Below are positions 21,251 to 44,925 of a stretch of 64,000 nucleotides of DNA, piece by piece (position 1 is the first letter of the stretch; each line of letters starts with the position of its first letter). Position numbers and translations under genes: made by a program. Below the pieces are notes generated by a model. The model had not been told where the DNA came from. It ran no database searches and saw nothing but the letters and a program-made list of their open reading frames with translations. Source of the stretch: Oscillospiraceae bacterium (GTDB lineage: Bacteria > Bacillota > Clostridia > Oscillospirales > CAG-272); the NCBI GenBank assembly GCA_015063685.1, contig SVTR01000003.1, positions 24,372 through 88,371 on the forward strand, read 5' to 3'.

Positions 21251-21268
21251 ATATTTTTCTCCTTAGTT

Positions 21269-23717: not shown

Positions 23718-23738
23718 GTTATTATCCTTTCATCTTTC

Positions 23739-28503: not shown

Positions 28504-28567
28504 ATGATATAACTCTTTCTTCTGTGACTACTACGAAAATTTCAATAAACAAGTTTGAATCATTTTG

Positions 28568-28599
28568 CAGTGCAGTACAGCCGAAGCTGTACCGCACTG
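28568..28599. terminator. 14-bp stem with cUUCGg loop on the minus strand; U-tract only on the plus strand
   Basis: CAGTGCAGTACAGC-CGAA-GCTGTACCGCACTG. Confidence 0.55.
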
Positions 28600-28711
28600 A
28601 CTTTTTTAGAGTTTAGGTTTTATTAACCCATGAGGAGATTAAATTTTTCTGTGAAATATGGCGAAAAAATCACTACGGTTTCGCCATCAAAAGAGTTTTT
28701 CGAGGTGACCT

Positions 28712-28834
28712 TTAGTTAAAACCAAAATCATCCTCCGGAAGGACTGCGTTGCCACTCCCTTCACTAGACGTAACGACATCCTGAATGCTAATATGAATAA
28801 TCTCCACAGTGGGCATTTCATATTTATTTTTCAT
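28712..28834 (-). CDS. 40-aa small peptide MKNKYEMPTVEIIHISIQDVVTSSEGSGNAVLPEDDFGFN
   Basis: Manual translation; RBS AAAGGAG; starts 19 bp after the stop of the large protein. Confidence 0.7.
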   Translation of the reverse strand: MKNKYEMPTVEIIHISIQDVVTSSEGSGNAVLPEDDFGFN

Positions 28835-28853
28835 AATTTTGCTCCTTTTTTAA

Positions 28854-31800: not shown

Positions 31801-34262
31801 AACTTAACGGTATGGACACCGTTCTTCAACTCGGTAGCAGGAACAGAGATAACCTTTCCGTTAAACGTATATTCAACTTCGTTTCCGTCAATATATACCT
31901 TGATGGAATTACTATCCAAACCGGTAGCATTTACATATTGGGTATTTTCAGCAACGTTTACCGCAAACCCAATGCTGTTATAGTTGGTAACAGTAGCGCT
32001 GTTGCGCTGGTTATTAAGATACTTGTCTTCGGCAGAAATAGGCTCAACATACTGAACCTCACCAAAGATAGGAGCATCTCTATCGTCACAAGCTTCAGAA
32101 TAATCTACGGTAAGATTATCCACAAAGAAGGTATTCATACCGGCAACACCGGGGGTCGTCTGCCAGTTGTATTCGCCGGAGGTACCGCCGTTAAGCTGAC
32201 AGCTGATTTCTATTCTGGCGCCTCCGCCTGCCGTCGGGTTTGCAGGATTCCACGCCTCGTTCTTCTTAAGCGTAATACTGTCATAACCACTAACGTCTAC
32301 CGCACAGTATCTCCATCCGGATTCCTCAAAATACAGAGAATCACCGTAGGTGATGGGGTAAGCATCGATACCGATTTCTTCTCCATTCTTGGTACCGGTA
32401 AAGCAGAATCTTATAGCCACGCTTACGGCATCCTTGGGGAAATATACCCAAACGCCGATAGATTTTGCATTTTCATAAGTTACGGTCTCGCCTGCCCAAC
32501 GCAAAGAAGTGCCAAGCCAGTTCAAAGTACCGTAGGTCGTATCGGAATAAACAGCACCGGCACCGTTGCCGTCGTGAACCATACCGGTAGCGGATGTTAC
32601 GGGATAGCTTTCAAGAATGTTGTTATACGCGTTAAGACCGGGTTTAGCATGGCTGCTATTCTTTCTCTGCTGAAGATGCTCTACATACCAACCCTCACCA
32701 AAGCCGTTTTCAAAATTCCAAACTACTTCAGATGCCTTACCGAATACTACTTGCATAGTTGCGGTAACATCGGGATCATGTGTCAAGGTAGCCGTGATAG
32801 AACCGCCGGTAACCGTAGGATCCTCTGTTGCGGTAATCACGTATCCGTTCAAGGTACCCATATTGTCGTTATCAAGCTTAACTTTAAAGTCAGAAGTCTT
32901 GCTTATAACTTCATAAATACCGTATGTAGCAGAAAGGGTAAAGCTGGCCTGCTGGCCTGTAGGAACGGTCAAAACAGACTGGCTGAAATGAATGGCATCG
33001 GGAATTACGATATTGATCTCGCAAGCACCGTATACTTTTCCTTCATACTCGATCTGTGCACTTACTGCACCGGTTTTGCCGGTAGAAACAAACAGACCGT
33101 CTTGATCAATGGTACCGAAGGAATCATCAGACAGTGTCCACTGAGCACCTTCGGGGATCTCTGCCGCACCACCCGTAAGATCAGCACCAATAGCCGAGAA
33201 CTGAACAGAGCTTCCGGGGGTAAAATACTCGCCTTCAGCACTTACATTTGCGCGAACAAATTCTCCGTCCGAGGGAGCTGTTGTGATAAAACAGATACCG
33301 GAGGTGGAGGGACGGAGACCACCGTCGGAAGGAGAGTTGTTGACCTTCAGCTCCTCACCGGGACGCTGAGATACGAAAGTGGAGGATCCACCACCGTCAC
33401 AGTTAGCCGCCCAAACGCAGCCTGCAGCGATCATAACCTCTGCGCACTCGTACATATTCATACCGGCGGAGAAGGGAGACTGACGACCGTCGTTAAGCAT
33501 CATAACGACCTGACCGTCCGCGGTAATACCCACAACGGAACGGGGAGCGGGGTTGTCTTTATGAGAAGCCTTGCTCTGGTTTACACCATCTTTTACAATG
33601 TATCCGCTGGATACCGGAATAACAGTGTCTTCCCAGCCGTCAAGGTCAACCGAAGTACGGATCTGTACCATTTCGAGCTCGGGGATATCGGCGGGTCTGG
33701 GGTTGCCGTTTTCATCAATGTCCTTGTTGATGACCACGCAGGTGGGGAAACCAACGTTGCCGTAAGCATAACCGCAGTTACCTGGGTCAAACATGATCTC
33801 GCCGTTCATCATCATGAAGCCGAGAGGTTCGCCTACACGGTCTGCAGGATAGCCGGTGTACCAAGACAAGCAGCAGTTCATCACACCGATGACTTCGCCG
33901 TCCATGTTCTCGTCGATCCAGTTCGCCTGATCGAGCATGGTGTCTGTTTGGTACTTAGATGTATCCATCTCGGAATACGTAGGAATGACACTTACATAGG
34001 AATGGTTCACATCAGCCTTCATAATATGAATAACCTGACGATAATTACCCGCATCGTTATTCAGAACGATCTCGGATTCGGAAATGCCGGGCGCATTATC
34101 CCAGTCCTTTTTGGAGATGAGGTTATAGTACTCATCCGTGCTTGTGGATGCATTGTGATTGTAATCAACACCTGCCGCAAACGGAATCACGGGCATCATG
34201 CCAATCATCATCACAGATGCAATTAAAAAAGCCAAAACGCGAATAAATCTCGTGTTTTTCAT
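28854..34262 (-). CDS. 1802-aa secreted multidomain phosphodiester glycosidase (NAGPA/DUF2233-like) with Ig-like, cohesin-like and BspA-like LRR regions
   Basis: Signal peptide; PRSVVGITADG...DGRQ...NCDGGGSS; LRR-like ITALGDRTFYQC / IPDNVTHMGYAALGYCSDL. Confidence 0.85.
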   Translation of the reverse strand: MKNTRFIRVLAFLIASVMMIGMMPVIPFAAGVDYNHNASTSTDEYYNLISKKDWDNAPGISESEIVLNNDAGNYRQVIHIMKADVNHSYVSVIPTYSEMDTSKYQTDTMLDQANWIDENMDGEVIGVMNCCLSWYTGYPADRVGEPLGFMMMNGEIMFDPGNCGYAYGNVGFPTCVVINKDIDENGNPRPADIPELEMVQIRTSVDLDGWEDTVIPVSSGYIVKDGVNQSKASHKDNPAPRSVVGITADGQVVMMLNDGRQSPFSAGMNMYECAEVMIAAGCVWAANCDGGGSSTFVSQRPGEELKVNNSPSDGGLRPSTSGICFITTAPSDGEFVRANVSAEGEYFTPGSSVQFSAIGADLTGGAAEIPEGAQWTLSDDSFGTIDQDGLFVSTGKTGAVSAQIEYEGKVYGACEINIVIPDAIHFSQSVLTVPTGQQASFTLSATYGIYEVISKTSDFKVKLDNDNMGTLNGYVITATEDPTVTGGSITATLTHDPDVTATMQVVFGKASEVVWNFENGFGEGWYVEHLQQRKNSSHAKPGLNAYNNILESYPVTSATGMVHDGNGAGAVYSDTTYGTLNWLGTSLRWAGETVTYENAKSIGVWVYFPKDAVSVAIRFCFTGTKNGEEIGIDAYPITYGDSLYFEESGWRYCAVDVSGYDSITLKKNEAWNPANPTAGGGARIEISCQLNGGTSGEYNWQTTPGVAGMNTFFVDNLTVDYSEACDDRDAPIFGEVQYVEPISAEDKYLNNQRNSATVTNYNSIGFAVNVAENTQYVNATGLDSNSIKVYIDGNEVEYTFNGKVISVPATELKNGVHTVKFTACDMAGNYASVIRKISVQAENNDADIWLAPQTDATLVPTGSQYWVDVVAKNVEKVEKVSLTLDLNNVNYWILDHMVTLYGFTATYTTDLAKENIAYITIERTGDVEVTGEKALVSIPVQTWEFKEEIYPGYVPSVGGDSDLNGNGMYDPYECWNEFVGHNYDIIINPLAGLVEFTDGTTEMFSGDKIQVDTERQIGCWWGKLTVDQKQEYFLKYDKSSWHLHSAGEAQNKAATCTEEGYIGRVFCTGCSCVTKTENGHDCDTAGGCGAVLDWGTTVPATGVHTYDFVDGKLACTSGGELFSGVHTDGKTYVDGVVMADGWNGESYYKDGVMYTGVQLIEGKYYNFGTNGICAHKYPMSAEWWTDENGDTRYLDNGVPVSGYNHIANVGPAFFDANSIAFDGEIVISGEICVFDKGIFAESTTADVLLAGLAGPEAYFILYADGTFVLSGEGDTYDYEQVDTTGNPDLAYKNRPWLKGDDTLSMKIKDVVVGKDITALGDRTFYQCYNIRRMTFEEGSKLARIGTSAICGPWYLSEVQIPDNVTHMGYAALGYCSDLVNVYMPKNISEIYHNAFIGSTKAVLNVVRGTYAEQFAQNEGVPYTYISGTLSGTITSVIGEEEEIVVRLTHDGETEVAYAVTVEGLNAEYCLENVPVGTYDMTVIKANHVIFSESVTVSKGINTQDVRLALGSGYKKFAINGASLVLSENINVIYAVTVPDGFVNPRMVFSFNGNETVVTTYTVDEQGRYCYAFSNVNPQKMGDRIDATLYAMVNGEEVSVSILDYSIRQYCINLLEQKPDDENLKRMVSDLLVYGSKTQVYQNYKVDALVTDGIELTPSNFNRLDETYNKQELIGAVDPDIRYASATLELSSEMTLLLGITATKDISLYTFEVAINGRTTIYTFEDLTYKNGKYYLSFCGIKATEFNDVVSAVIKKDGEQIGQTVNYSVYTYIQKHQNTENEELRELLKAIYNYGESALIYKQ

Positions 34263-34353
34263 GTTTTTTCTCCTTTTTGGTTTTAATGGGACAACGATAT
34301 ATATAAACCGACACAGTCGGAAAGTTTTCGGCTATCTATTTTGTTTTATGAAA

Positions 34354-35565
34354 TCATTCAATCCTCAACGCGGTGACTATGCTTTGATACGCCTTAGCTA
34401 CATGATAATGTTCCCAAAGATAATTTTTAGCACGTGCGGACATGCCTGTCGTATCTTGCAATACTATGGTTTGAATCAGCGAGGAAAATCTTTCAACATC
34501 GTTACTTTCACACCACCAACCGAAGCCGCCGTCCGTGATAACCTTCCCCACGTCGGTATTAGGATCGGTACAAGCCAAAACAGGTAACCCCGCTTGTATA
34601 TAGGGCAAAAGACGCGAGGGAAAATTGGGGATGGTGAAACGGTGATCCAAGAAAATCATACCCACGTCGCAGGCCGCCACCATACGATCGTAATCATCTT
34701 TTGGTATATGTTTAAGAAGTTTGACATTTCCCTGCGGCTCGCTTTTTATAAAAGTTTCCACTTTATGATATTCCGTACCACCGCCTATGAGTAAGAAAAA
34801 AGCTTTAGATTTTTTTTGATTTCGCAAACATTCGATCAAAAACGAGATTCCTTGAGGTTTTCCAAAATTCCCACCATACAAAAACACTTTTCTATCTTGA
34901 GGAATTCCATATCTATCCCGCATCTCCCTTTTAGCGGTGGGAGACAAGGACATATCCCTTGGTTCGATACAGTTTGGACACACGCTGATGGTATCCGGAC
35001 TTATCTTAGGGTTATGCTCTAGCACATAATTTACATTGGCCGAAGACATGCACCCAATATGATCCGAAACAGCATACAAATGCTCTTCTTTTCTGCGGAA
35101 ATAGCGATACAAGAGACCTTTCAAACCATTTTGAGCCATCATACCGAGATCTACTGCATTTTGAGGGAAGATATCCTTCAACAACAAGTAGGTTTGGGCT
35201 TGATCCCTTTTTTTGATATATTCAACCACACCAACCAACGTAATAGGCGGGGTGGAATACAGGACAAGATCAAAGTGAACCCCCGGGAAATACTTTTTAA
35301 TAGCTTTTTTGTACTGGCCTTCGATCTGAAGAGTGGTGACACCTTTTTCAATGCGGCCGCAGCCTGTGAGATTTCCAATCCGAACGTACAGCATATGCGC
35401 GCCGTGGTCATCCTTCAATTCTGTAGGAAGCCCCGTGTTTTTTTCCCTTTGGGATACCACATACACGGTGTGTCCGTGCGCTCGAAACTGTCGGAGCAGA
35501 TCTGGGTAAAGACTATACGCCTCTATGCTCTTCATTCGCCCGGTCGTCAAAAACAAAACATTCAT
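34354..35565 (-). CDS. GT4 glycosyltransferase (WbuB-like)
   Basis: KDIFPQNAVDLG, YGGNFGKPQG, NFPSRLLPY. Confidence 0.9.
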   Translation of the reverse strand: MNVLFLTTGRMKSIEAYSLYPDLLRQFRAHGHTVYVVSQREKNTGLPTELKDDHGAHMLYVRIGNLTGCGRIEKGVTTLQIEGQYKKAIKKYFPGVHFDLVLYSTPPITLVGVVEYIKKRDQAQTYLLLKDIFPQNAVDLGMMAQNGLKGLLYRYFRRKEEHLYAVSDHIGCMSSANVNYVLEHNPKISPDTISVCPNCIEPRDMSLSPTAKREMRDRYGIPQDRKVFLYGGNFGKPQGISFLIECLRNQKKSKAFFLLIGGGTEYHKVETFIKSEPQGNVKLLKHIPKDDYDRMVAACDVGMIFLDHRFTIPNFPSRLLPYIQAGLPVLACTDPNTDVGKVITDGGFGWWCESNDVERFSSLIQTIVLQDTTGMSARAKNYLWEHYHVAKAYQSIVTALRIE

Positions 35566-35596
35566 ATCAATTCATTCCTCAGCGCCAAAACGTGCA

Positions 35597-36892
35597 TCAA
35601 ATTTCAGAGATCGTTACCTTGAACTTTCCGTTTTTCCCGCACTCGATATGCGCGGTGTGTTCAATCGTTACACGGGCATCGGTGCCAAAAATATCTTTCA
35701 TGACAGCAACACATCTTTCGTCAATATCTGTCGCGACACCTTCCAGTCGGATGGTATAATCTTTGGGAGCGGTTTGAACAATCTGATAGCGATGTATTTC
35801 TACAAATTCTTTGAAACGGCCCATAATATTGGTTTCGCTCAATAGTGTTCCGTCTGTCTTATGCAACGCAGATATTTCACGGCCCTGCAGAGAAGCAATC
35901 TCGACACATTGGCCGTTGACAATTTTTTTAGCCACCGCCAAATCTCCGTTGGAATATCTGATAAAGGGTAGCGCTCTGTTGTTGAAGTCGGTAATGACAA
36001 CTCTTCCCATTTCGCCTTCTTCAACAGAAACATCGCTGTCCATCTTTAAAATTTCCACGAAAAACTGGGTTGTATCGACATAGAATATGCGATCATTGGG
36101 TTTTGTGATGGCAATGATAGCATTTTCAATCGAGGCATATCTGTTCAAAACGGGACACTTGAATAATTTTTCCAAGAGATCCCAAGTTTGGCTTTTCAAA
36201 TTATCACTATCCGCAATGATCAATTTGATGCCAAAATCGTAATTCTCATATCCCTTGCGAACGATATAGTCAGCCAATCTTTCAAGTCCCGAAGAATATG
36301 CCAGAATGATACTTAGTTTCTTATCCTTAACGATGGTCTGCACAATGTTCTCGAGCTTCTCATCGTTCAAATCCAGAATGCTGAGGGGCACCAAATTTTT
36401 TTTGAAGCATTCCCTCTTGGAGGCAGTGTGACCGAATCCCCAATTGCGAAGGTGAGCCCAACGGTCACCCACCCTCCAACCGATCTCTCTGTTTTTTAGG
36501 ATCAGCGCGGCTTTATGACAATGATCTTTCTCCTTATTCTGATAAGCCTTGAAGGGCGTACCGGAGGACCCGCTGGTATAGCAGGTCAGCAATACCGACT
36601 CGTTCTGATATTCACGGGATCTGAATGCTTCATAGTCTTTCTTCATAAGTTCTTTGTTCACAACAGGAAAGTCAGAAAGCTTCTCTGCCGTCACATTCTC
36701 ATACCACGGAACATTCGCCTTTACATATGTCAGGATCTCTGACACTTCGTCCTGATTATCGTAGCCTTTTTTCTTTTTTTCTTTGATGAGCTTGACTTTC
36801 TTTTTAACCGGACTTCCATGGAGCGCGTCTAACGCCCAGTAGGCCAATTCTCTGATGTTGCTCATATAATATTGCTCCCAATCTTTTATCAA
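35597..36892 (-). CDS. CapK-like / phenylacetate-CoA ligase family adenylating enzyme
   Basis: TSGSSGTP, NRYASIE, GRVVITDFNNRALPFIRYSNGD. Confidence 0.85.
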   Translation of the reverse strand: MIKDWEQYYMSNIRELAYWALDALHGSPVKKKVKLIKEKKKKGYDNQDEVSEILTYVKANVPWYENVTAEKLSDFPVVNKELMKKDYEAFRSREYQNESVLLTCYTSGSSGTPFKAYQNKEKDHCHKAALILKNREIGWRVGDRWAHLRNWGFGHTASKRECFKKNLVPLSILDLNDEKLENIVQTIVKDKKLSIILAYSSGLERLADYIVRKGYENYDFGIKLIIADSDNLKSQTWDLLEKLFKCPVLNRYASIENAIIAITKPNDRIFYVDTTQFFVEILKMDSDVSVEEGEMGRVVITDFNNRALPFIRYSNGDLAVAKKIVNGQCVEIASLQGREISALHKTDGTLLSETNIMGRFKEFVEIHRYQIVQTAPKDYTIRLEGVATDIDERCVAVMKDIFGTDARVTIEHTAHIECGKNGKFKVTISEI

Positions 36893-36935
36893 TTTCTTTC
36901 ATAAGCACCTTGTATCACAATCCAGTGCTCACAAA

Positions 36936-37580
36936 TTATTTGTACTGTTTTTCGCTTCTGATCTGCGCTAAATTGCCTTCTTTGTTTCCTGCCACACTGC
37001 TTTGAATACCCGTGCGCTTGAAAACAACGATCACCGTATTGAAAAGGATCTTCAAATCAAAAGCAAGTGAGATGTTACGCACATATTCCACATCATATTG
37101 GAATCGCGTTTCCCACTCAACATTATTTCTTCCTTTGATTTGCGCAAGTCCCGTAAGACCGGGGCGCACATCATGTCTGTGACGCTCTTCCTCAGTATAA
37201 TAAGGCAGATATTCGGGGAGCAGGGGGCGGGGGCCGACAAAGGACATATCCCCTTTTAGGATGTTCAAAAGTTCAGGGAGTTCATCCAGCGAGGTGGATC
37301 GCAACAGCTTACCGTATTTGTTCAATCGCTTGGCATCGGGTAAGAGCTTACCGTCCTTGTCCTTTGCGTTGCTCATGGAACGGAATTTTACAAGGCGAAA
37401 TATTTTTTCCTCCCCTGTCTTTTTGCTGATCTTACCAGGGCGGAGTTGGGTGAAAAAGGGGTTACCCTTCATCATGATCGCGCCCACGATGCTCAGAATC
37501 ACGAAGAGGGGGGAAAGCACGCACAGTGCTATAAATGAAAACAGTATATCAATCACGCGCTTGAAAAAATTCGCATACAT
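36936..37580 (-). CDS. Initiating phosphoglycosyl transferase (PglC-like), locus A
   Basis: KFRSM, SLDELPEL, GPRPLL, RPGLTGLAQ. Confidence 0.93.
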   Translation of the reverse strand: MYANFFKRVIDILFSFIALCVLSPLFVILSIVGAIMMKGNPFFTQLRPGKISKKTGEEKIFRLVKFRSMSNAKDKDGKLLPDAKRLNKYGKLLRSTSLDELPELLNILKGDMSFVGPRPLLPEYLPYYTEEERHRHDVRPGLTGLAQIKGRNNVEWETRFQYDVEYVRNISLAFDLKILFNTVIVVFKRTGIQSSVAGNKEGNLAQIRSEKQYK

Positions 37581-37675
37581 ATATGTACCCTCGAAAAAAT
37601 ATTGAAATAACGGTTAAAGCAAGATAAATATGACTCTACGTCGAATACAATGGTGGTTCTTATAAATATACTCTC

Positions 37676-38746
37676 TTACTTTACTACGTCGAAGATCTGT
37701 TCACTTTCCAGAACAATGGGCTCTACGTCCACGTCGCGGAGGAACACGTATGGCTTATCGTAATGGTAGAACGGAGCACGCGCCACGTTATCGCAATGTC
37801 CATCTTCCATGATCTTGATGGTATCCTCGATCAAATCAAATCCAACTTGGGCCATCACACCCGTATATGCCATATGGCGGATGTTCACCTCTGTAACCTT
37901 CATATTACCATTCCGATCCTCTTTCAAATCGAAGGAAAGAATGCCATGGGCAGTCACACCGAGTTTTTTCTCAAGATATTTGACACATCTATCGCAAAAA
38001 TCATTGATCCTGTCTTCATTCAAGAAGCGTCCGAAGTGGGTATTTCCCGTTACACGAGAAGGTGCGACCTTTGCCATAACGTATTCAACGCATTCGAGAG
38101 CTGCGCCCTTAACGTATTCGCCATTGTAATATAGCATTTGATTGGCTAAGTGACGACCGGTTAGAAACTCGCTGACCGTAAATTCAGGAATCTGAGCATT
38201 GATGAACAGCCAGCTCTTATAACTGTCGATATCGTCCAGCCTCAAAGAGCCCAATCCGCCGGTTCCTTCCGTGGCGCGGATCCAGCAAGGAAAGCCGATC
38301 AAATTTTCCACGTCCTCATATCGGGGATCGTCTTTTGTCACCTTGATGGTCTTAGGGATAAATTCGGTACCCTCAAGCAATTCGGCCATAATGGACTTAT
38401 CCTTCAAGGAAGCCGACAGCAGTCTACTTCCCATGAATACACGACAAGGATATTTTCCGTTTTGCTCGAAATACTCTCCCCACGCGACAATTTCGCTTTC
38501 CGGCTGAACAAAGGCATAATCAATGTGCTCATCCATAACCAGCTTTTTCATCCATGGGAAATATTCGGGAGATGTGCAACGGGGGCATATGAAATATTCA
38601 TCCAGCAATCCATCCATAAAAAAGCCAAGCGCTTTTTTTTCAATATCGCATCCGATGAGTCTATAACTCGGGTGATTTTTTTTGATAGTTTTAGCGATGG
38701 ATCGGGGGGTTAATCCGCCTATTCCCGTAATCAATATTGTTTTCAT
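37676..38746 (-). CDS. ATP-grasp domain protein (carbamoyl-phosphate synthase-like)
   Basis: ILITGIGG, GFPCWIRATEGTGGLG, SEFLTG, VTEVNIR. Confidence 0.75.
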   Translation of the reverse strand: MKTILITGIGGLTPRSIAKTIKKNHPSYRLIGCDIEKKALGFFMDGLLDEYFICPRCTSPEYFPWMKKLVMDEHIDYAFVQPESEIVAWGEYFEQNGKYPCRVFMGSRLLSASLKDKSIMAELLEGTEFIPKTIKVTKDDPRYEDVENLIGFPCWIRATEGTGGLGSLRLDDIDSYKSWLFINAQIPEFTVSEFLTGRHLANQMLYYNGEYVKGAALECVEYVMAKVAPSRVTGNTHFGRFLNEDRINDFCDRCVKYLEKKLGVTAHGILSFDLKEDRNGNMKVTEVNIRHMAYTGVMAQVGFDLIEDTIKIMEDGHCDNVARAPFYHYDKPYVFLRDVDVEPIVLESEQIFDVVK

Positions 38747-38755
38747 TTTTCCTCC

Positions 38756-39811
38756 TTACATCTCCACCCGAGTGGACAGCTCTAACGCGCGGGATAGCGC
38801 AGATATCTGCATACGCATTTCATCCGTGCCATATCTTTGATCGCACACCAACGATATTTCACTTCTGCTATACCGCGTTTCCCTGTTGAGATAATTGCGA
38901 TTCACAGGCCAATGACAAGGACAATAAACATTGCTCTTGACTAGTTCCAAATGAATGAAATGTCTTTTGTTTTCATTCACGATAATCGGTACAAATAAAG
39001 GGCAATCCTCTTCCTCGATATCATGATAGAGCAATTGAATATCATATGTCTCCGATAGGGCTTTCACTTCATCCATGAGCAGTTGCGCGTTGGCTCGGCG
39101 TGTTGCCCTTAATGAAGCCGAATCGGCGGTCAGCATGATTTCGATCTCGGAATCTCGGGTTTTAAATCCCTCATATTCATTATGTAAAAGCTTGTTTGCC
39201 AATGCGTACAGGTCTAAAAAATTCTGTTTTTCTCCCTCGGAAAATTTAATATATTTTTCTTTTAGTATCGCGGCCTGTCTCCAGGCATCTAGATACACGC
39301 TGTATTCTGTTGTGCTTTCGGGTACGGTAAAACCGTTTTTATTATACACAACAGCACAAAGAGAATCAAACCATTTTCTGTAACTCACAATGATATAGTC
39401 GGCTAATTCGTATGTTTTGGCATACGAAAACGCCGTTTGCGTGGCATCCACCACCAAAAGTTTTCCTTGCTCCTTGCACTTTTGGGAAAACGCCAATGTG
39501 TCTTTGCTGATAAAGCCAAAATAATCTATGGCCAATACTGCATCGACATCATCAGCGATTTCGACATGGTTCAAATTAAACGCGTCATAAAAAGATACTT
39601 CCAATCCCTGCTCCATAAAGGGACGTATCATGGAGCTACAGCAGTAGTCCGGAACAAGGATACTTCTTGAGGTATTCTTCAGTTCATTAGCTATCAAACC
39701 CAATCCCGTGATTCCGGATACAAGATATCTGTGAGGATAAACGCTGAGTTTCTGATACTCGTTCTTCCCTTTAGTCACGGAATTATGATAAAATTCACTA
39801 CCAACTTCCAC
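38756..39811 (-). CDS. Divergent PLP-dependent (DegT-like) protein
   Basis: MEVGSEF, PDYCCSSM, DYFGF, DATQ, SYRKW, CDQRY. Confidence 0.7.
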   Translation of the reverse strand: MEVGSEFYHNSVTKGKNEYQKLSVYPHRYLVSGITGLGLIANELKNTSRSILVPDYCCSSMIRPFMEQGLEVSFYDAFNLNHVEIADDVDAVLAIDYFGFISKDTLAFSQKCKEQGKLLVVDATQTAFSYAKTYELADYIIVSYRKWFDSLCAVVYNKNGFTVPESTTEYSVYLDAWRQAAILKEKYIKFSEGEKQNFLDLYALANKLLHNEYEGFKTRDSEIEIMLTADSASLRATRRANAQLLMDEVKALSETYDIQLLYHDIEEEDCPLFVPIIVNENKRHFIHLELVKSNVYCPCHWPVNRNYLNRETRYSRSEISLVCDQRYGTDEMRMQISALSRALELSTRVEM

Positions 39812-40392
39812 TACATACCTCCAAATAACCGCAAGCCAAAGCTTGAATCAACCAATTTTGTTTCGCATGATGAAAAAGCTGACCAAATCACACCGTTCGC
39901 CATTTTGACGCACCGGCTTCGCAGCGTTTCTTCATTTGTGAAGCCACAGCTTTTGAACAATGCTATCAATGCGCGGTTATACGAAAGCACGTGTACTGTC
40001 ACGCACATTAATTCAAGGGTATCGAAGCAGTATGACAACGCCAACATAATGCTGGCTTTTCCTATACCCTTGCCATACGCGGATTTGTGTAGCTTGATGT
40101 TTATGCCTGCAGATAGAGTCAAACTGTCAATACTTGAAACGATCACCGTTCCCTCCGACAGGCCGTCATGCTCCACCATGAATCGTTTCACATTCTTCTC
40201 AAGCTTGAGCTTCTCCGGCCATTGCATTTGTTCCCGAAGCATTACGATTTGGGGTGTCTCTACCACACATTTGGCAATATCTAAATCAGTATTCAGCTCC
40301 ATCAAAAACTCCGCATCCTCAGCTTCAATGCTACAAAAAAGTATGCACTTTTCGTCATTTTTCAAAAGTGCTGAAAGATTTTCCATTTTCAC
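39811..40392 (-). CDS. RimJ/RimL-type GNAT N-acetyltransferase, probably frameshifted near the C-terminus
   Basis: YGKGIG, VLSYNRALIALFKSCGF; the expected tail NGERCDLVSFFI lies in an alternative frame at about 39903. Confidence 0.7.
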   Translation of the reverse strand: MKMENLSALLKNDEKCILFCSIEAEDAEFLMELNTDLDIAKCVVETPQIVMLREQMQWPEKLKLEKNVKRFMVEHDGLSEGTVIVSSIDSLTLSAGINIKLHKSAYGKGIGKASIMLALSYCFDTLELMCVTVHVLSYNRALIALFKSCGFTNEETLRSRCVKMANGVIWSAFSSCETKLVDSSFGLRLFGGM

Positions 40393-40393
40393 C

Positions 40394-41533
40394 TTAAAAG
40401 GAAGATCGAATCACGTCCATAACGTAGTTCTGCTCTCCCTCGGTCATTTTGATATCCGAGGGGAGACACAGGCCGCGGGCAAAGATATCCTCGTTGACAG
40501 GCTTGTCCTCGACGGATACAAAATCGTAGCCTTCAAAGACAGGCTGCATATGCATGGGCTTCCAGATGGGACGAGCCTCCACGTTGTAATCGTTCAGGGT
40601 ACGGATGATGTCCATGGGATTCACGTTCACCCCTTCGTTGACCGTCATGCAGGACAGCCAGAAGTTGGGCTTGCTGTCGGGTAGATAAGGGTTCATGGTC
40701 ACGGGCAGATTGGCAAGACCCTGCTTGTAGCGGCGGTAGATGGTTTCCTTTTTGTCGCGGTGCTCCTCCAGATGCCTGAGCTGACCGCGGCCAATGCCCG
40801 CCACCACGTTGGACATACGATAGTTATAGCCGATCTCATTATGCTGGTACCACAGGGCGGGCTCGCGGGCCTGGGTAGCCCAGAACAGAGCCTTCTTGCG
40901 ATCGGCCTCGTTGTCGCAAAGCAGCATACCGCCACCCGAAGTGGTGATGATCTTATTGCCGTTGAAGGAGAGCACGTTATACTTTCCAAAGGTGCCGCAC
41001 TTCCCTCCCCTGTATTCGGAGACCAGAGCCTCGGCAGCATCCTCGATGAGGATGGCGTTATGACGCTTGCAGATCTCTGTGATCTCCTCCATCTTGGAGG
41101 GGGTACCGTACAGATGTGCCAGCATGACCACCTTGGCGTCGGGATATTTTTCAAAGGCTAATTCCAACGCGCGAGGATCCATGTTCCAGGTCTCCCGCTC
41201 GGAATCAATGAACACCTGCACGCCCCCCTCATAGGACACGGGGTTGACGGTGGCGGCAAAGGTCATGTCGCTGCAAAGCACGATATCACCCCGCTTGACG
41301 CCTGCCAGCTTGACCGCCAGGTGGAGCGCTGCCGTGCCTGCGTTGAGGCACAGGGCGTGGAAGTCCGACTGATTTTCGCCGTTCAGGTATGCATTCATCT
41401 CGGCTTCAAAACCGTCGCAGTTAAAGCCCAACGGGGCGATCCAGTTGCGGTCAAAGACCTCCTGTATGTAGGCCATCTCGTCTCCGTGCATGGTTGGTGT
41501 GGCCAGGGGAATTCTATGTTCATAGGTTTTCAT
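40394..41533 (-). CDS. DegT/DnrJ/EryC1/StrS sugar aminotransferase (PglE-like)
   Basis: GTAALHLA, EDAAEA, SFNGNKIITTSGGG, GYNYRMSN. Confidence 0.95.
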   Translation of the reverse strand: MKTYEHRIPLATPTMHGDEMAYIQEVFDRNWIAPLGFNCDGFEAEMNAYLNGENQSDFHALCLNAGTAALHLAVKLAGVKRGDIVLCSDMTFAATVNPVSYEGGVQVFIDSERETWNMDPRALELAFEKYPDAKVVMLAHLYGTPSKMEEITEICKRHNAILIEDAAEALVSEYRGGKCGTFGKYNVLSFNGNKIITTSGGGMLLCDNEADRKKALFWATQAREPALWYQHNEIGYNYRMSNVVAGIGRGQLRHLEEHRDKKETIYRRYKQGLANLPVTMNPYLPDSKPNFWLSCMTVNEGVNVNPMDIIRTLNDYNVEARPIWKPMHMQPVFEGYDFVSVEDKPVNEDIFARGLCLPSDIKMTEGEQNYVMDVIRSSF

Positions 41534-43713
41534 ACGGTGATTGCTCCTGTTTCTTTACGCGCGTTGATAGGGCTTGCTGTCATAGATGCCTGCAAAAGCA
41601 CTGAGCGGCTACCCGCCATGCGATTTCCGGTCTCCCAAAGCATCCCGATAGCATTCAGCTTGGAACGCCGTTCGTTGGACATATCCTTTTGGCCATTCTC
41701 TCGTTGCCGCCGGATCCACCGACCGAGACGGCACCCGTCGGGTGTGGTATAAGCAACCGGCACATCCAAGTGTCCATGCTTTTTTTGATATTCACATGCC
41801 GCAGCATATGCTTTTTCCCAGGCAATATCATGCTTATTGCCCCACAGCATGCCGATCTTATTCAAACGATTTATCTGCTCCTCGGACATCTTTGCTCTTT
41901 TGTTGTTGTTTTTTTGGGAAGCACGCAATCCAAATATCCACGCCCCCAGTCTGATCCCGTCCTCATCCACGTAGTTTGCGGGAACATCCAAGTGTCCATG
42001 AGCCTTATGAAATTTAACCGCGGCGTAATAATTGCGCTCCCAAAGGTAGTCCACCGCGCTCCAGACCATGCCGATAGCCTCCAGCGCCTCGATACGCTCA
42101 GGAGTCAGGTAGGCGGCCTGTATACCGTTCTTGTAGTAAGTACGAAGATTGGCAATCCAAGCTCCGAGATTGACACCGTGGTAGTTCTTCTCGGAAATGC
42201 TCACCATCAGGTCTCCGTGCTCGTCAAAATAAGCCTTGGCGGCGGTGTAGTATTTTTCCCAGGCTACGTCACGGGCGCTTTCCCAGCGCATACCGATGGA
42301 TTCCAACTTGGCGATCTGCTCATCGGTCAGAAGTCCCTTTACCTTCCCCCCACGGACAAGGCGCTGAGTGGTCAGCCAGGTGCCCAGGGTATAACCCTCT
42401 GGGGTGACATAGCGCTTGGGGACGTCCAAATGGCCGTTTTCCTTATAATATTTTTCTGCCGCCTCGAACATCAGCTCCCAGGAGGCGGTGAGGGTATCGT
42501 TCAGCTTGTCAAAAAGCACCATACAATCCCTGACCTCATCCACCACCTTGAAATGCTCATTGATAATGGCGTCATCCATACCCAGGGAGCGGTAGTAAGC
42601 GGTAGCGATCTGCATCTCCTCCTCCACGGCGTCAATGCTGTAGAGATTTTCAATGTTGAGAACGATATCAAAGATCACGGCGCTGGTCTTTTTGCCCGCA
42701 GCCAAAGCTCGGCCGATTTGCTGTTTATAGATGATGGGGGAAACCGTGGGACGAAGCAGGATCACGCCGCTCACGTCGTCCACGTGAATACCCTCGTTGA
42801 GCATATCAATGCAGAACAACAGCTTCAGGTGCTCGCTGTTATCCGCCTTGAAATCCGCGAAGGCACGGCTGGTATCGGGATCGTCGGAGTAGGCTTTATA
42901 GATATGGGGATGACGGTCAACGCCCGAGAACCACAGAGATGCCATGTCGGCCATCTCACAGAGATGATCGTAGTTGGCGCAGAAGACCAGGTACTTCCCC
43001 GCTTTGTCCGTCATGTGCTTTTCAAAGATCTTATCCAGACCGTCAGCCTTGTCCAAGGCGCGGCGCAAGGCTTCCAGATAGGCCTCGCCCTCATCCCGCA
43101 CGGCCTTACTCTTGGCGGCACGGACACGGCGCTCGTACTTTTCCAGATCCTTTTGGTAGGAAAAGACGGACAGCACATATTTGGGTGGGCTGAGGATACC
43201 CCTCACGATGGACTCGCCCAAGGTCATTTCGGAAGCTACACAGCCGTCAAACAGCTCGTCGGCCATGTTGCGTTGGTTATCCAGATAGCGAATAGCGGTG
43301 GCAGACAGGCCCAGGATGGGTACTTCGGGGTGGCTTGTCAATAGCGCCTTGACTCCCTGTCCCCACATTTCGGCACCGCAACGGTGAAATTCGTCCAGGA
43401 TAATATAGTCCGCACAAATACCGGCGAGCTCGTCCTCGGTGAGATTCATGAGCTTGGCGTAGGTGTAGAATTGGATATTTTCGGGAACGTATCCGCCGGT
43501 AGCAGCCTTGAGATTCTCCAGCTGAGTCTTGAAGATATACTCGGAGGGAGACAACCAGCAAACCGTAGCCTGGGGGTGCTCCTCGCAGAGCTTGAAACCG
43601 ATAAAGGATTTGCCCGTTCCCGTGGGATGGATCACTGCCGCTTTGCCGGTTTCGGAGAGCATAGCGACAGCGGCTTCATATGCGGTTTGGTTGTGCTCAA
43701 ATAACGCAATCAC
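41530..43713 (-). CDS. SF2 (DExH) helicase with four C-terminal helicase-associated (HA) repeats
   Basis: PTGTGKS, LDEFHR, LSAT, MLNEGIH, QQIGR; four W-E-x-Y...HG-L-VP...LG-W repeats; RBS AAAGGAGG; ATGA overlap with the aminotransferase. Confidence 0.92.
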   Translation of the reverse strand: MIALFEHNQTAYEAAVAMLSETGKAAVIHPTGTGKSFIGFKLCEEHPQATVCWLSPSEYIFKTQLENLKAATGGYVPENIQFYTYAKLMNLTEDELAGICADYIILDEFHRCGAEMWGQGVKALLTSHPEVPILGLSATAIRYLDNQRNMADELFDGCVASEMTLGESIVRGILSPPKYVLSVFSYQKDLEKYERRVRAAKSKAVRDEGEAYLEALRRALDKADGLDKIFEKHMTDKAGKYLVFCANYDHLCEMADMASLWFSGVDRHPHIYKAYSDDPDTSRAFADFKADNSEHLKLLFCIDMLNEGIHVDDVSGVILLRPTVSPIIYKQQIGRALAAGKKTSAVIFDIVLNIENLYSIDAVEEEMQIATAYYRSLGMDDAIINEHFKVVDEVRDCMVLFDKLNDTLTASWELMFEAAEKYYKENGHLDVPKRYVTPEGYTLGTWLTTQRLVRGGKVKGLLTDEQIAKLESIGMRWESARDVAWEKYYTAAKAYFDEHGDLMVSISEKNYHGVNLGAWIANLRTYYKNGIQAAYLTPERIEALEAIGMVWSAVDYLWERNYYAAVKFHKAHGHLDVPANYVDEDGIRLGAWIFGLRASQKNNNKRAKMSEEQINRLNKIGMLWGNKHDIAWEKAYAAACEYQKKHGHLDVPVAYTTPDGCRLGRWIRRQRENGQKDMSNERRSKLNAIGMLWETGNRMAGSRSVLLQASMTASPINARKETGAITV

Positions 43714-43752
43714 TACGTTCCCTCCTTTCGGAAAATTTGAAGCATGCAGGGT

Positions 43753-43777: not shown

Positions 43778-43960
43778 GAGCAAATCAAAGATTGGGAAAT
43801 TATCCCAAACGGGGGATACAAAAAAGGCATAACAATAAGACCTGGCACCAAATTTTTCCAAAAAAATGGTACAGGCTTCTTTTGCTATGCCTTAGGAAAA
43901 AGGAGTATGAAAATCTGTTTGGGAATTTATGACAAAATCTTATAAAATTCTCAAAAACTA

Positions 43961-43989
43961 TTGCAATCTTTTATGGGATATGCTATAAT
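43961..43989 (+). promoter_or_regulatory. sigmaA promoter with extended -10 inside the switch
   Basis: TTGCAA-17bp-(TGc)TATAAT. Confidence 0.88.
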
Positions 43990-44025
43990 ATGTTGAATGA
44001 TGGGTTATTATGTCTTTTTATATAA

Positions 44026-44050
44026 AACAACATAATCGCCGTTATGTTGT
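44026..44050 (+). repeat. Right inverted repeat (IRR)
   Basis: (A)ACAACATAA-TCGCCG-TTATGTTGT. Confidence 0.95.
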
Positions 44051-44058
44051 TGATATTG

Positions 44059-44083
44059 AGTCGGGGGAAATCCCGGCTTTTTT
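44059..44083 (+). terminator. Intrinsic terminator just outside IRR
   Basis: AGTCGGG-GGAAAT-CCCGGCT followed by a T-tract. Confidence 0.65.
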
Positions 44084-44085
44084 GT

Positions 44086-44925
44086 TTATATGATCAGCTT
44101 CATGAGCTTCATTTTACGCTTATGGGTCTCCCCCGTGGTGACGGTATAGATACGGGTGGTGTTGATACTGGCATGTCCCAACAGATCCGCGAGCGTGACG
44201 ATATCCTTCTGCATGGCGTAAAAAACGCGAGCAAACAGGTGTCGTAAATTATGGGGAAAAACCTTGGTCGCCCTCACCTTTGCGGCGGTGCATAGAGATT
44301 TCATGGCGCGCCAGATGGCTGTCCGATCCAGGGGACGGCCGTGCTTCGTGCGAAACACCGCGCCTTCATCAATATTGAATTTATCTATATATGACAAAAG
44401 CTTTTTCCGAAGCTCCGGCACAAAAAAGATCCGCCTCGTTTTTCCTTTGCAGTTGACCCTCGCTTCTCCCCGTTTCACTGCCTCTACCGTAACGTATGCA
44501 AGCTCGCTGACGCGTATGCCTGTTCCGCAAATGGTTTGCAGGATCAACGATAATCGTCGGTTTCCTCGTTGCTCGGCTGTTGTCACCAAACGCATATATT
44601 CCTGTCGGGTCAGCTCTCTGCTCTCCGAGCAGAAGGCATCCCGTTGCACACGGAATTGCTTGACCACCAGTTCATGCCATCCGCAAAAGCGAAAGAAGCT
44701 GTTGAGTGCCGCCAGCATGGAATTGGCGCTGGTGGCGGTGTACTGCTCCGTGAGCGAATTTTTGTAGGCGAGCACCAAGGCCTTGTCCACGGGAGCGCCG
44801 TTGACGTAAGCCGCAAAAGCCCGCACGTCACGGGTGTATTTTTCTATGGTGGCGGGGCTTTTTTCTTCAAGGCGAAGATGATTTTCAAACAATTGTTGTA
44901 ATTTCATGCTGATGTGATAGATCAT
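44086..44925 (-). CDS. Tyrosine recombinase (XerC/D-like; putative invertase)
   Basis: All catalytic motifs present: GIRVSEL, KGK, HNLRH, LGH, TRIY; 279 aa; RBS AAGGAGG. Confidence 0.95.
   Translation of the reverse strand: MIYHISMKLQQLFENHLRLEEKSPATIEKYTRDVRAFAAYVNGAPVDKALVLAYKNSLTEQYTATSANSMLAALNSFFRFCGWHELVVKQFRVQRDAFCSESRELTRQEYMRLVTTAEQRGNRRLSLILQTICGTGIRVSELAYVTVEAVKRGEARVNCKGKTRRIFFVPELRKKLLSYIDKFNIDEGAVFRTKHGRPLDRTAIWRAMKSLCTAAKVRATKVFPHNLRHLFARVFYAMQKDIVTLADLLGHASINTTRIYTVTTGETHKRKMKLMKLII

What the first reader, a model, noticed from the sequence alone, without database searches (positions are those of the whole stretch)
41530..43752. SF2 helicase with four HA repeats is the first gene of the switched glycan operon, in the slot where UpxY/LoaP antiterminators usually sit
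Seen: the helicase starts 40 bp from IRL and its stop overlaps the DegT aminotransferase start (ATGA). No NusG paralog is visible in the window. A helicase stub occupies the same position in locus B, so the recombinase-switch-helicase-glycan arrangement occurred twice. Known: long polysaccharide operons often begin with a processive antiterminator; HA-repeat helicases have no established role in glycan synthesis that I know of. Inference: a dedicated module in which the helicase aids transcription processivity, cross-regulates other loci, influences the switch, or acts in phage defence co-switched with the surface receptor.
Basis: partly seen in the sequence, partly recalled or inferred. Interest (0 to 1): 0.85.

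Follow-up and report, generated by a model that had tools for sequence, protein, structure and literature searches.

The report
Helicase leads phase-variable glycan operons
A DNA-motor protein with four DNA-binding repeats is the first gene behind an invertible promoter of a 25-kb surface-sugar operon, and the same layout recurs in many gut Clostridia, sometimes with the motor fused to a known transcription antiterminator.

Summary
Window 41530-43713 (-) encodes a 727-aa SF2 helicase with four HA repeats. Its start lies 39 nt from a perfect 25-nt inverted repeat, and its stop overlaps the DegT start (ATGA). A tyrosine recombinase flanks the 248-bp invertible segment. The promoter inside points away from the helicase, so this assembly is OFF. 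One metatranscriptome contig shows the flipped form.

The layout is conserved. In the 80 closest of 582 related loci:
- 48 of 66 scannable loci have an inverted-repeat pair ending within 200 nt of the helicase start (controls 0 of 93), in at least three repeat classes.
- 39 of 43 loci with 6 kb downstream carry glycan genes on the same strand.
- 21 of 80 have a LoaP antiterminator right after the helicase, or fused to it. Fusions fall in 5 protein clusters.

So the helicase accompanies LoaP rather than replacing it. This genome has only the housekeeping NusG. Locus B keeps a locked-ON promoter copy and a 30-codon helicase stub, but no recombinase.

My best reading, inferred and not shown, is a DNA-binding translocase that helps RNA polymerase transcribe the long operon. 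Rival readings are switch or cross-locus control, defence, and mobile-module baggage. My searches found no description in print.

The parts
41530..43713 (-). HA-helicase CDS, 727 aa, GTG start; first gene of the switched operon
   Evidence: Motifs I (GTGKS 32-36), II (DEFH 107-110), III (SAT 137-139) and VI (QQxGR 331-335) are invariant in 40 homologues.
42499..43713 (-). SF2 motor core (aa 1-405), two RecA-like lobes
   Evidence: Model pLDDT 85.7, pTM 0.81. Foldseek top matches are RadD, the LlaBIII Type ISP motor, XPB, RIG-I, SauUSI and CSB.
41638..42486 (-). Array of four HA (PF03457) three-helix repeats (aa ~410-692), followed by a 35-aa low-confidence tail
   Evidence: Pfam finds 4 stretches. 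In the full-length model each repeat has pLDDT 80-90 but the arrangement between domains is uncertain, pTM 0.36. PDB 2kta is a solved HA domain.
43714..43752 (-). 39-nt leader with the ribosome-binding site, between IRL and the start codon
43753..43777 (.). IRL, itself a palindrome (ACATAA-N6-TTATGT core)
43778..44025 (.). Invertible 248-bp segment
   Evidence: Flipped junction 43753<->44051 seen in one contig of run X10.
43961..43989 (+). Sigma-70-type promoter TTGCAA-17-TATAAT with TG extension. It points away from the helicase, so the assembly is in the OFF orientation.
   Evidence: The same promoter is conserved in the two locked copies.
44026..44050 (.). IRR
44058..44079 (+). Terminator-like hairpin plus T-run just outside IRR. 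It would stop OFF-state transcripts before they run antisense into the recombinase gene (inferred).
   Evidence: This is a consensus match only: the region holds 15 such sites against 9.3 +/- 3.5 in shuffles.
43792..43808 (-). Terminator-like hairpin inside the segment. In the OFF state it faces read-through from the recombinase gene (inferred).
   Evidence: consensus match only
44086..44925 (-). Tyrosine recombinase, 279 aa (Phage_integrase plus SAM-like N-domain), the presumed invertase
   Evidence: It is the only copy of this type in the genome. Homologues of 46-55% identity sit next to the same repeat class in 9 related loci.
18745..41533 (-). Rest of the glycan operon: DegT, GNAT, ATP-grasp, Bac_transf (36936-37580), AMP-binding, GT4s, a 1802-aa NAGPA/LRR protein, Wzy-like, two flippases, UDP-glucose dehydrogenase
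   Evidence: The first genes overlap or are separated by a few nt.
15510..15620 (-). Helicase stub of locus B. Codons 1 to about 30 are conserved, and the frame is broken before the Walker A motif.
15658..15861 (-). Locked copy of the switch segment, 77% identical and inverted relative to locus A. Promoter 15719-15747 faces the stub and Bac_transf. There is one degenerate repeat arm, no distal arm and no recombinase.
9622..10009 (-). Third relic: a promoter segment (79% identical, facing the acyltransferase gene at 8223-9209) plus 57 nt matching the region upstream of the recombinase gene

Best explanation
SHOWN. The gene encodes an ATPase-competent SF2 motor with a C-terminal array of four HA three-helix repeats. 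It is the first cistron of a ~25-kb glycan operon whose promoter sits on a 248-bp segment. That segment is flanked by perfect 25-nt inverted repeats next to a tyrosine recombinase. This assembly is OFF, and the flipped form exists in nature. The order recombinase - inverton - HA-helicase - (LoaP) - Bac_transf/DegT glycan genes is a conserved, horizontally spread module of gut and rumen Clostridia.

INFERRED mechanism. When the promoter flips ON, the helicase is made first and acts on the transcription of its own long, lower-GC operon. The HA repeats hold duplex DNA. The XPB/RadD/CSB-like motor translocates on DNA at or behind RNA polymerase. This helps the polymerase through pauses, terminators or bound proteins. 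Where the specialised NusG paralogue LoaP exists, the helicase works with it. In this genome, which has no LoaP, it works alone.
For: Position and coupling:
- The start is 39 nt from IRL and the stop overlaps the DegT start.

Conservation of the layout in the 80 best of 582 related loci:
- 39 of 43 loci with at least 6 kb downstream have same-strand homologues of the window's glycan genes within 6 kb; 35 of 43 have Bac_transf.
- Pfam tallies of the first and second downstream ORFs in 50 loci: NusG 13 and 1, DegT 12 and 12, Bac_transf 7 and 16.
- 48 of 66 loci with at least 400 nt upstream have an inverted-repeat pair ending within 200 nt of the start codon; controls 0 of 93. A stricter scan gave 37 of 66 against 0 of 163.

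Link to RNA polymerase:
- A LoaP-like gene lies within 550 nt downstream (one at 1820 nt) or is fused in 21 of 80 loci.
- Four tested neighbours pass the NCBIfam LoaP cut-off of 125 bits, scoring 150-157 bits.
- The Dorea sp. 5-2 helicase (L080, 953 aa) carries a full-length LoaP at its C-terminus: NusG Pfam E 7e-9, LoaP model 136 bits covering 1-166 of 166.
- Such fusions occur in 5 clusters that are 50-99% identical in the LoaP part.
- A 35%-identical sister group replaces the HA repeats with three RNA-polymerase alpha-CTD and two sigma-70 region-4 domains.

Enzyme and specificity:
- The core folds like dsDNA translocases that act on or near polymerases (XPB, CSB) and like RadD. Catalytic motifs are invariant.
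- Across the same 13 loci the helicase is 62-78% identical while LoaP is 23-33% identical. This fits a generic motor paired with a locus-specific adaptor.

This genome:
- It has only one NusG.
- Both of its Bac_transf loci sit behind the helicase or its stub.
Against: - No experiment or expression data bear on function. The fusion and the neighbourhood are guilt by association.
- Locus B lost the helicase yet keeps intact-looking genes behind a locked promoter. The helicase is therefore not needed in cis for maintenance of such an operon.
- Six LoaP-led glycan loci in three Lachnospiraceae genomes have no helicase.
- In 4 of 43 loci no glycan gene follows.
- In Ruminococcus albus 7 pRUMAL01, two tandem helicases lie after glycan genes and before a RelB antitoxin, an InlB-repeat protein and a recombinase.
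- The tie to invertons (73%) is about as strong as the tie to glycan genes, so a role at the switch fits the neighbourhood data equally well.
- Distant HA-helicases (33% identity) carry an Mrr nuclease.
- The closest motor profiles in PADLOC are restriction-type.
- Alpha-CTD-like and sigma-r4-like domains are generic helix-hairpin-helix and helix-turn-helix DNA binders.
Confidence: 0.42

Rival explanations
1. Switch or cross-locus controller. The helicase, made only from an ON locus, acts on DNA at invertons or leaders, its own or those of other glycan loci. It would bias inversion or shut other loci down. In outcome this resembles UpxZ in Bacteroides or orientation control in fim.
For: 48 of 66 homologues lie directly behind an inverted-repeat pair, in at least three repeat classes. 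23 of 56 nearest upstream ORFs are tyrosine recombinases and 2 are resolvases. In some loci the recombinase gene lies inside the invertible segment, 40-160 nt from the helicase. Genomes can hold 2-5 helicase-led loci. HA repeats are reported as DNA-binding; I saw only the title of Mills 2013, as cited in PMC12191111.
Against: 18 of 66 loci show no repeat pair. The helicase accompanies unrelated repeat classes and recombinase subfamilies, so it cannot be a dedicated partner of one recombinase. Paralogues within one genome are 79-86% identical in the core and 72-85% in the HA part, which leaves little room for locus discrimination. The window's genome has a single switch, so there is nothing to cross-regulate except the locked locus B. 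The LoaP fusion points to the polymerase and not to the synapse.
Confidence: 0.2
2. Mobile-module baggage or recombination anchor. The helicase belongs to a horizontally moving recombinase-plus-helicase unit. Its conserved sequence at the head of variable glycan loci mainly serves DNA transactions such as locus exchange, replication or repair of the island. It would not serve glycan expression.
For: Distribution is patchy: 5 of 151 sampled genomes of the order and 2 of 401 of the phylum, both counts including the window's genome. Yet identity is 59-88% across Oscillospiraceae, Lachnospiraceae, Christensenellales and Selenomonadales records. The helicase, DegT and recombinase are ~51% GC, flanks are 53-57% and glycan genes 38-49%. 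Stubs and promoter relics in the window show past recombination at exactly this 5' end. Copies occur on R. albus megaplasmids next to a recombinase. The nearest solved relative is the repair helicase RadD.
Against: A pure anchor needs no intact ATPase, yet all motifs are invariant. Translational coupling to DegT and the position behind the promoter argue for co-expression with the glycan genes. The LoaP fusions are hard to explain this way.
Confidence: 0.15
3. Phage or foreign-DNA defence motor that is phase-varied together with the surface glycan.
For: PADLOC motor-domain matches to Type IV methyl-directed restriction enzymes (E 8.7e-19) and PbeA (E 1.8e-18). PDB sequence match to SauUSI. Relatives of 33% identity carry an Mrr_cat nuclease plus 11 HA repeats. 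Phase-variable defence genes are common in gut bacteria (general knowledge).
Against: The matches cover only the generic motor, residues ~94-360. There is no nuclease, methylase or sensor domain in the protein or in the neighbouring genes. No PADLOC system is completed. Neighbours are glycan enzymes or LoaP in nearly all loci.
Confidence: 0.08

Closest known systems
Bacteroides capsular polysaccharide loci: invertible promoter, then UpxY (NusG paralogue), UpxZ and biosynthesis genes
   Same: Both are phase-variable promoters flanked by inverted repeats, with one or two regulatory genes leading a long glycan operon and several such loci per genome. I saw passages of PMC11685472. The layout here is shown.
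   Different: The leader gene here is an SF2 helicase with HA repeats and has no NGN or KOW domain. Paralogues are ~80% identical and not strongly diverged. This genome has no UpxZ-like gene and no NusG paralogue. The hosts are Clostridia.
LoaP, the NusG paralogue of Firmicutes that antiterminates polyketide and polysaccharide operons
   Same: LoaP genes sit directly after the helicase in 20 related loci and one helicase carries a full LoaP as its C-terminal domain. Both occupy the head of long operons.
   Different: The window's protein is not a LoaP, and the genome has none. A helicase partner of LoaP did not turn up in my searches. Goodson 2017 was not held, so I could not check it.
RadD / XPB / CSB-type SF2 dsDNA translocases
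   Same: Same two-lobe motor fold. Foldseek E 1e-14 to 1e-12, 21-22% identity to RadD. Sequence match to RadD in the PDB at E 3.7e-6.
   Different: NCBIfam RadD scores 41 bits against a cut-off of 720. The RadD zinc-finger and C-terminal domains are replaced by HA repeats. The genomic context is different.
SauUSI-type Type IV restriction enzymes and Mrr-fused HA-helicases
   Same: Related motor; distant relatives also share HA repeats.
   Different: No PLD or Mrr nuclease and no target-recognition domain. The neighbours are glycan genes.
Clostridial and enterobacterial promoter invertons (fimS with FimB/FimE; C. difficile switches with RecV; Salmonella hin)
   Same: Tyrosine-recombinase inversion of a short promoter segment. 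In some relatives the recombinase gene lies inside the segment, as with hin (the comparison itself is recalled knowledge).
   Different: The first regulated gene is a helicase, and at least three unrelated repeat classes serve the same helicase-led operon type.

Membership tests
SF2 helicase/translocase | Walker A (motif I), DExH (motif II), SAT (motif III) and arginine-finger motif VI on two RecA-like lobes | tested here: met
   Pfam ResIII, DEAD and Helicase_C. T31 G32 G34 K35 S36, D107 E108 F109 H110, A138 T139, Q331 Q332 G334 R335 are invariant in 40 sequences. Two-lobe model, pLDDT 85.7.
HA-domain (PF03457) proteins | One or more ~64-residue three-helix HA repeats | tested here: met
   4 stretches, E 8.1e-81, 266.7 bits against a cut-off of 28.4. 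Helical triplets in the model.
NusG specialised paralogues (UpxY, LoaP, RfaH) | NGN domain that binds RNA polymerase, plus a KOW domain | tested here: not met
   No PF02357 hit in the window's helicase and no LoaP, UpxY or RfaH NCBIfam hit. Only some relatives have a fused LoaP.
RadD (YejH) DNA repair helicase | Full-length match to the equivalog model, including the zinc-finger and C-terminal SSB-binding region | tested here: not met
   NF053632 scores 41 bits against a cut-off of 720, over the motor only.
Type IV (SauUSI-like) or Type I/ISP restriction enzymes; PbeA | Motor plus a nuclease domain (PLD or Mrr) and a target-recognition or methylase part | tested here: not met
   PADLOC and NCBIfam matches cover residues ~94-360 only. 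There is no nuclease Pfam in the protein or its neighbours.
Promoter inverton (site-specific phase-variation switch) | Inverted repeats flanking a short segment | tested here: met
   25-nt perfect arms, 248 nt apart; the motif has 2 matches against 0 expected.
Promoter inverton (site-specific phase-variation switch) | Adjacent site-specific recombinase | tested here: met
   279-aa Phage_integrase protein 36 nt from IRR.
Promoter inverton (site-specific phase-variation switch) | Outward-reading promoter inside the segment | tested here: met
   TTGCAA-17-TATAAT with TG at 43961-43989, conserved in two relic copies. This is a consensus match; no transcription start was mapped.
Promoter inverton (site-specific phase-variation switch) | Both orientations present in populations | tested here: met
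   One X10 contig (269 nt, depth 3.4) joins 43753 to 44051 on opposite strands. Contigs of X2 and X6 span the switch in the reference orientation. This is thin: one contig, from a 95-99% identical relative. Related assemblies show the same promoter in either orientation.

The most novel reading that the evidence does not exclude
HA-helicases of this subfamily are a new class of operon-dedicated transcription elongation factor. In this reading an ATP-driven DNA translocase is delivered to RNA polymerase, through a fused or separate LoaP or on its own. It makes very long, phase-variable glycan operons transcribable. This would be the first motor-driven processive antitermination system in bacteria, spread by horizontal transfer among gut Clostridia.
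Probability: 0.3. Interest if true: 0.9.

Novelty: new variant of a known kind. Interest (0 to 1): 0.74.

Why it matters
Phase-variable surface glycans shape how gut bacteria meet phages and host immunity. In Bacteroides their control by invertons plus UpxY/UpxZ is a textbook case. For gut Clostridia, which are abundant in humans and livestock, little comparable is known.

This analysis shows a recurrent module: recombinase, inverton, HA-helicase, optional LoaP, then the glycan operon. The helicase in it is conserved and ATPase-competent, and it has no assigned role. The natural helicase-LoaP fusions give a concrete, testable lead that a DNA motor takes part in operon-specific elongation control.

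The result also gives a function-linked context to the HA domain, which has been an orphan 'helicase-associated' repeat. Practically, the conserved helicase 5' end and the repeat classes are markers for finding phase-variable glycan loci in Clostridial metagenome bins. Such loci often break assemblies: 14 of 80 loci end within 400 nt upstream of the helicase.

Tried and rejected
- Complex prediction of the Dorea sp. 5-2 helicase (L064, 794 aa) with its neighbouring LoaP (186 aa), both as 13-row alignments. The verdict was 'no answer', score 0.00. It counts neither for nor against binding.
- The full-length structure gave low inter-domain confidence, pTM 0.36, so I draw nothing from the relative placement of the HA repeats and the motor.
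- The idea that the helicase replaces a NusG paralogue was rejected as a general rule because LoaP follows it in many loci.
- A dedicated partnership with the window's recombinase type was rejected. Only 9 of the 66 loci with scannable upstream sequence have that repeat class and recombinase.
- Membership in RadD, SauUSI or PbeA was rejected on cut-offs and missing domains.
- Phage records held only distant helicases, at most 29% identity, so a prophage origin is not supported.
- Sampling the order and phylum for independent loci gave few new ones. Three of the four order hits were loci already in hand, and the phylum hit was weak at E 7e-33.
- Run X5 has contigs that stop exactly at IRR. This is suggestive of a mixed population, but a contig end is not evidence.
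- RNA-library contigs of X10 cover the helicase 5' part at 95-97% identity. DNA can be present in such libraries, so I do not count this as proof of expression.
- Terminator-like sites in 36000-45500 number 15 against 9.3 +/- 3.5 in shuffles. The two that I place in the model are consensus matches only.

Literature searches:
- 'helicase associated domain' + polysaccharide: 0 papers.
- PF03457: 3 papers, none relevant.
- invertible promoter + helicase + capsular polysaccharide + Firmicutes: 3 papers hold all four terms, 2 listed, from listings only.
- LoaP + helicase: 19 papers, none relevant by title or abstract; I read passages of PMC7819879.
- inverton + helicase + Lachnospiraceae: 0 papers.
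- LoaP + invertible: the Bacteroides UpxY papers only; I read passages of PMC11685472.
- A five-term search returned nothing relevant.
- Supplements were not consulted. The library lacks most subscription journals, so 'not in print' means not found in these searches.


Full report
**1. What is in the window**

The minus-strand ORF 41530..43713 encodes 727 aa from a GTG start behind AAAGGAGGG. Pfam finds ResIII/DEAD at 3-143, Helicase_C at 226-337 and four HA repeats, E 8e-81. Its TGA overlaps the ATG of a DegT aminotransferase as ATGA.

Thirty-nine nt upstream of the start lies one arm (43753-43777) of a perfect 25-nt inverted repeat. The other arm is at 44026-44050, with 248 nt between them. 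Each arm is itself a palindrome, ACATAA-N6-TTATGT. That pattern occurs twice in the window against 0.00 expected, and nowhere else in the 2.72-Mb assembly.

A 279-aa tyrosine recombinase (44086..44925, -) sits 36 nt beyond the distal arm. It is the only one of its type in the genome.

Inside the segment is a near-consensus promoter, TTGCAA-17-TATAAT with a TG extension, at 43961-43989 on the + strand. It points away from the helicase, so the assembly shows the OFF state. A + strand terminator-like hairpin at 44058-44079 lies just outside the distal arm. A - strand one at 43808-43792 lies inside the segment. These could insulate the OFF state, but that is inference from consensus matches.

Downstream of the helicase, tightly packed on the same strand, are DegT, a GNAT, an ATP-grasp protein, the initiating transferase Bac_transf, glycosyltransferases, a Wzy-like polymerase, two flippases, a UDP-glucose dehydrogenase and a 1802-aa NAGPA/LRR protein. 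Together they run about 25 kb, to 18745.

**2. Does the switch flip?**

I laid contigs of three DNA runs and one metatranscriptome on 42900-45100.
- Two DNA runs have contigs that span the switch in the reference orientation (X2 43539-45100; X6 43653-44695).
- One contig of the RNA library X10 (269 nt, depth 3.4, 95-99% identical strain) joins 43753 to 44051 on opposite strands, with the 25-nt repeat shared. This is the junction expected for the flipped form.

This is thin but direct. Related assemblies add support. The best promoter-like site in the short invertible segments points toward the helicase in 10 loci, away in 25, and is tied in 2, of 37. Close relatives carry the same hexamers in opposite orientations: L004 against L005, and L009 and L011 against L012.

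**3. Locus B and a third relic**

At 15510-15620 (-) the first ~30 codons of a helicase survive, 66% identical and broken before the Walker A motif. They lie directly upstream of a second Bac_transf-led locus.

Next to the stub is a 77%-identical copy of the switch segment in the opposite orientation to locus A. Its promoter (15719-15747) faces the genes. Only one degenerate repeat arm remains, and there is no recombinase.

A third promoter copy (9622-9729) faces an acyltransferase gene. Beside it are 57 nt that match the region upstream of the recombinase gene.

Both Bac_transf genes of the genome lie behind the helicase or its stub.

**4. The family and its neighbourhoods**

The protein has more than 7000 database relatives among 8000 scored candidates. 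They are 700-1270 aa long, with more HA repeats in the longer ones, and are named at most 'Helicase associated domain protein'.

A scan of one genome per species confirmed 582 encoding stretches. I studied the best 80, at 59-82% identity. They come from Oscillospiraceae, Faecousia, Lachnospiraceae, Dorea, Ruminococcus, Christensenellales, Selenomonadales and Pumilibacter. This sample is biased toward close relatives.

*Downstream*
- Of 43 loci with at least 6 kb of downstream DNA, 39 have same-strand homologues of the window's glycan genes within 6 kb, and 35 have Bac_transf.
- The 4 exceptions are L015, L023, L031 and L077.
- Pfam tallies of the first downstream + strand ORF in 50 loci: NusG 13, DegT 12, Bac_transf 7. 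For the second ORF: Bac_transf 16, DegT 12.

*Upstream*
- 14 loci have fewer than 400 nt upstream because the contig ends there.
- Of the other 66, 37 have a perfect inverted repeat of at least 16 nt (spacer 80-900 nt) ending within 200 nt of the start codon. Control windows gave 0 of 163.
- With spacers up to 2.5 kb and one mismatch per side, the count is 48 of 66 against 0 of 93.
- The longer elements (1.4-1.6 kb) contain the recombinase gene itself.
- Three repeat classes appear in the strict scan. The window's ACATAAT/ATTATGT class has 9 loci, all with a recombinase homologue of 46-55% identity alongside. AATGAAGT/ACTTCATT has 21. CCTAATA/TATTAGG has 6, one of them (L022) with a different sequence. 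One further locus (L066) fits none.
- The nearest upstream ORF is a tyrosine recombinase in 23 of 56 loci and a resolvase in 2.

**5. The LoaP connection**

The NusG-family neighbours are LoaP. Four of five tested pass the NCBIfam cut-off of 125 bits, scoring 150-157. A LoaP-like gene lies within 550 nt downstream (one at 1820 nt) or is fused in 21 of 80 loci, mostly Lachnospiraceae. Sixty-nine loci have at least 700 nt downstream.

In Dorea sp. 5-2 two helicases share their reading frame with an NGN domain. For L080 (953 aa), Pfam gives helicase, five HA repeats and NusG at 774-883, E 7e-9. Its last 208 residues score 136 bits on the LoaP model over its full length. A search restricted to that part found 5 clusters of such fusions, 953-1005 aa and 50-99% identical, all carrying helicase, HA and NusG Pfams. 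P0122 was confirmed.

In five genomes examined whole, helicase copies number 3, 5, 2, 1 and 1, plus one fragment in the last genome. Bac_transf copies number 6, 9, 5, 2 and 4. Six small-type Bac_transf loci there are led by LoaP without a helicase, and 2 of those 6 have the same AATGAAGT repeat class.

The helicase is therefore an optional element placed between the inverton and LoaP, and not LoaP's substitute. Across 13 loci the helicase is 62-78% identical while the adjacent LoaP is 23-33% identical. Paralogous helicases in one genome are 79-86% identical in the core and 72-85% in the HA part. This looks like a generic motor next to a locus-specific adaptor.

The window's genome has a single NusG-family gene (assembly 93% complete).

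**6. What kind of helicase?**

The core model (pLDDT 85.7) matches RadD best (E 1.6e-14, 21-22% identity). Next come the LlaBIII Type ISP motor, XPB in TFIIH, RIG-I, SauUSI and CSB on Pol II.
- PDB sequence matches: SauUSI, RadD, an HA-domain NMR structure (2kta) and HsdR.
- All curated family scores are far below their cut-offs, for example RadD at 41 against 720.
- PADLOC matches cover only the motor, to Type IV restriction enzymes and PbeA.
- Catalytic motifs are invariant in 40 homologues.

Longer relatives show what the core can be joined to. Forms of 33% identity carry an Mrr nuclease and 11 HA repeats, which looks like restriction. Forms of 35% identity have the core followed by three RNA-polymerase alpha-CTD domains (E 6e-46), two sigma-70 region-4 domains and helix-hairpin-helix motifs. 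The C-terminal arrays are thus interchangeable DNA-binding modules.

**7. Distribution**

The helicase is rare and patchy. It occurs in 5 of 151 sampled genomes of the order and 2 of 401 of the phylum, both counts including the window's genome. Yet it is 59-88% identical across families. The helicase, DegT and recombinase are ~51% GC, the flanks 53-57% and the glycan genes 38-49%. This argues for horizontal spread of the module.

Copies occur on both megaplasmids of Ruminococcus albus 7. On pRUMAL01, two tandem helicases lie after a glycan cluster and before a RelB antitoxin, an InlB-repeat protein and a recombinase. That locus is a counter-example to 'always first'.

**8. Reading**

What is shown is a conserved, phase-variable module with an active-looking motor as its first product. 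How the motor works is inferred. The fusion to LoaP, the conserved position ahead of LoaP, the translocase fold and the DNA-binding repeats favour action on the transcribing polymerase of the long operon. I put this at 0.42.

The equally tight link to invertons and recombinases keeps a role at the switch or between loci alive, at 0.20. Patchy distribution, stubs and plasmid copies keep a DNA-transaction or mobile-module role alive, at 0.15. Defence is the weakest at 0.08, because no nuclease or partner gene is present. The remainder is for something not considered.

Against the main reading, locus B and six LoaP-led loci do without a helicase in cis, and no expression or binding data exist.

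**9. Novelty**

My searches and the passages I read in a NusG review and the 2024 UpxY paper mention no helicase in this role. The original LoaP paper and the HA-domain structure paper were not held, and supplements were closed.

I classify this as a new variant of a known kind: a phase-variable glycan operon with a leader regulator. It has a fair chance of hiding a new mechanism.

Noticed in passing
window 45199-45410 (+): A small ORF that reads like a small acid-soluble spore protein by eye (no family search was run), followed by a strong terminator at 45425-45458. It suggests the host is a spore-forming Clostridium-type organism.
   Followed up: no
window 49425-49593, 58859-59491, 60523-60786: Several copies, in both orientations, of a TAAATTGTTGTTTA-like word flank GC-rich hairpins (e.g. 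CGTAGGGGCGAAC...GTTCGCCCCTACG). They look like a repeated intergenic palindromic element or a small mobile repeat.
   Followed up: no
window 8021-8194 (-) and 10288-11433 (-): The 57-aa ORF at 8021-8194 repeats the C-terminal ~35 residues of the glycosyltransferase at 10288-11433. Together with the promoter relic at 9622-10009, this marks a duplication or insertion scar inside locus B.
   Followed up: partly
window 28854-34262 (-): A 1802-aa protein with a NAGPA phosphodiester-glycosidase domain and BspA-type leucine-rich repeats lies in the middle of the glycan operon. It is followed by a 350-nt gap that could hold an internal promoter.
   Followed up: no
window 16537-17824 (-) and 16047-16481 (+): A 196-aa ORF and an overlapping 238-aa ORF, which I took by eye for a sigma factor and a membrane anti-sigma-like protein (no family search was run), plus a divergent small secreted protein, sit between loci A and B.
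   Followed up: no
L065:211-1385: A Lachnospiraceae locus has a 362-nt perfect inverted duplication (572 nt with one mismatch allowed per side) upstream of its helicase, ending in the AATGAAGT-class repeat. It may be a duplicated or nested inverton.
   Followed up: no
L023, L053, L057, L062, L082; L095 (R. albus 7 pRUMAL01): Two HA-helicase genes in tandem on one strand. In R. albus they are 1197 and 990 aa and are annotated only as 'Helicase associated domain protein'.
   Followed up: partly
G001:C1:359861-360902, G002:C15:95920-96921, G002:C1:216287-217665: Helicase-less glycan loci carry two LoaP-like genes in tandem. The first is weaker-scoring and occupies the place that the helicase-LoaP fusion holds elsewhere.
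   Followed up: partly
P0149-P0156 (no locus): A sister group of the helicase core is joined to three RNA-polymerase alpha-CTD domains and two sigma-70 region-4 domains. Its genomic context could not be fetched.
   Followed up: partly
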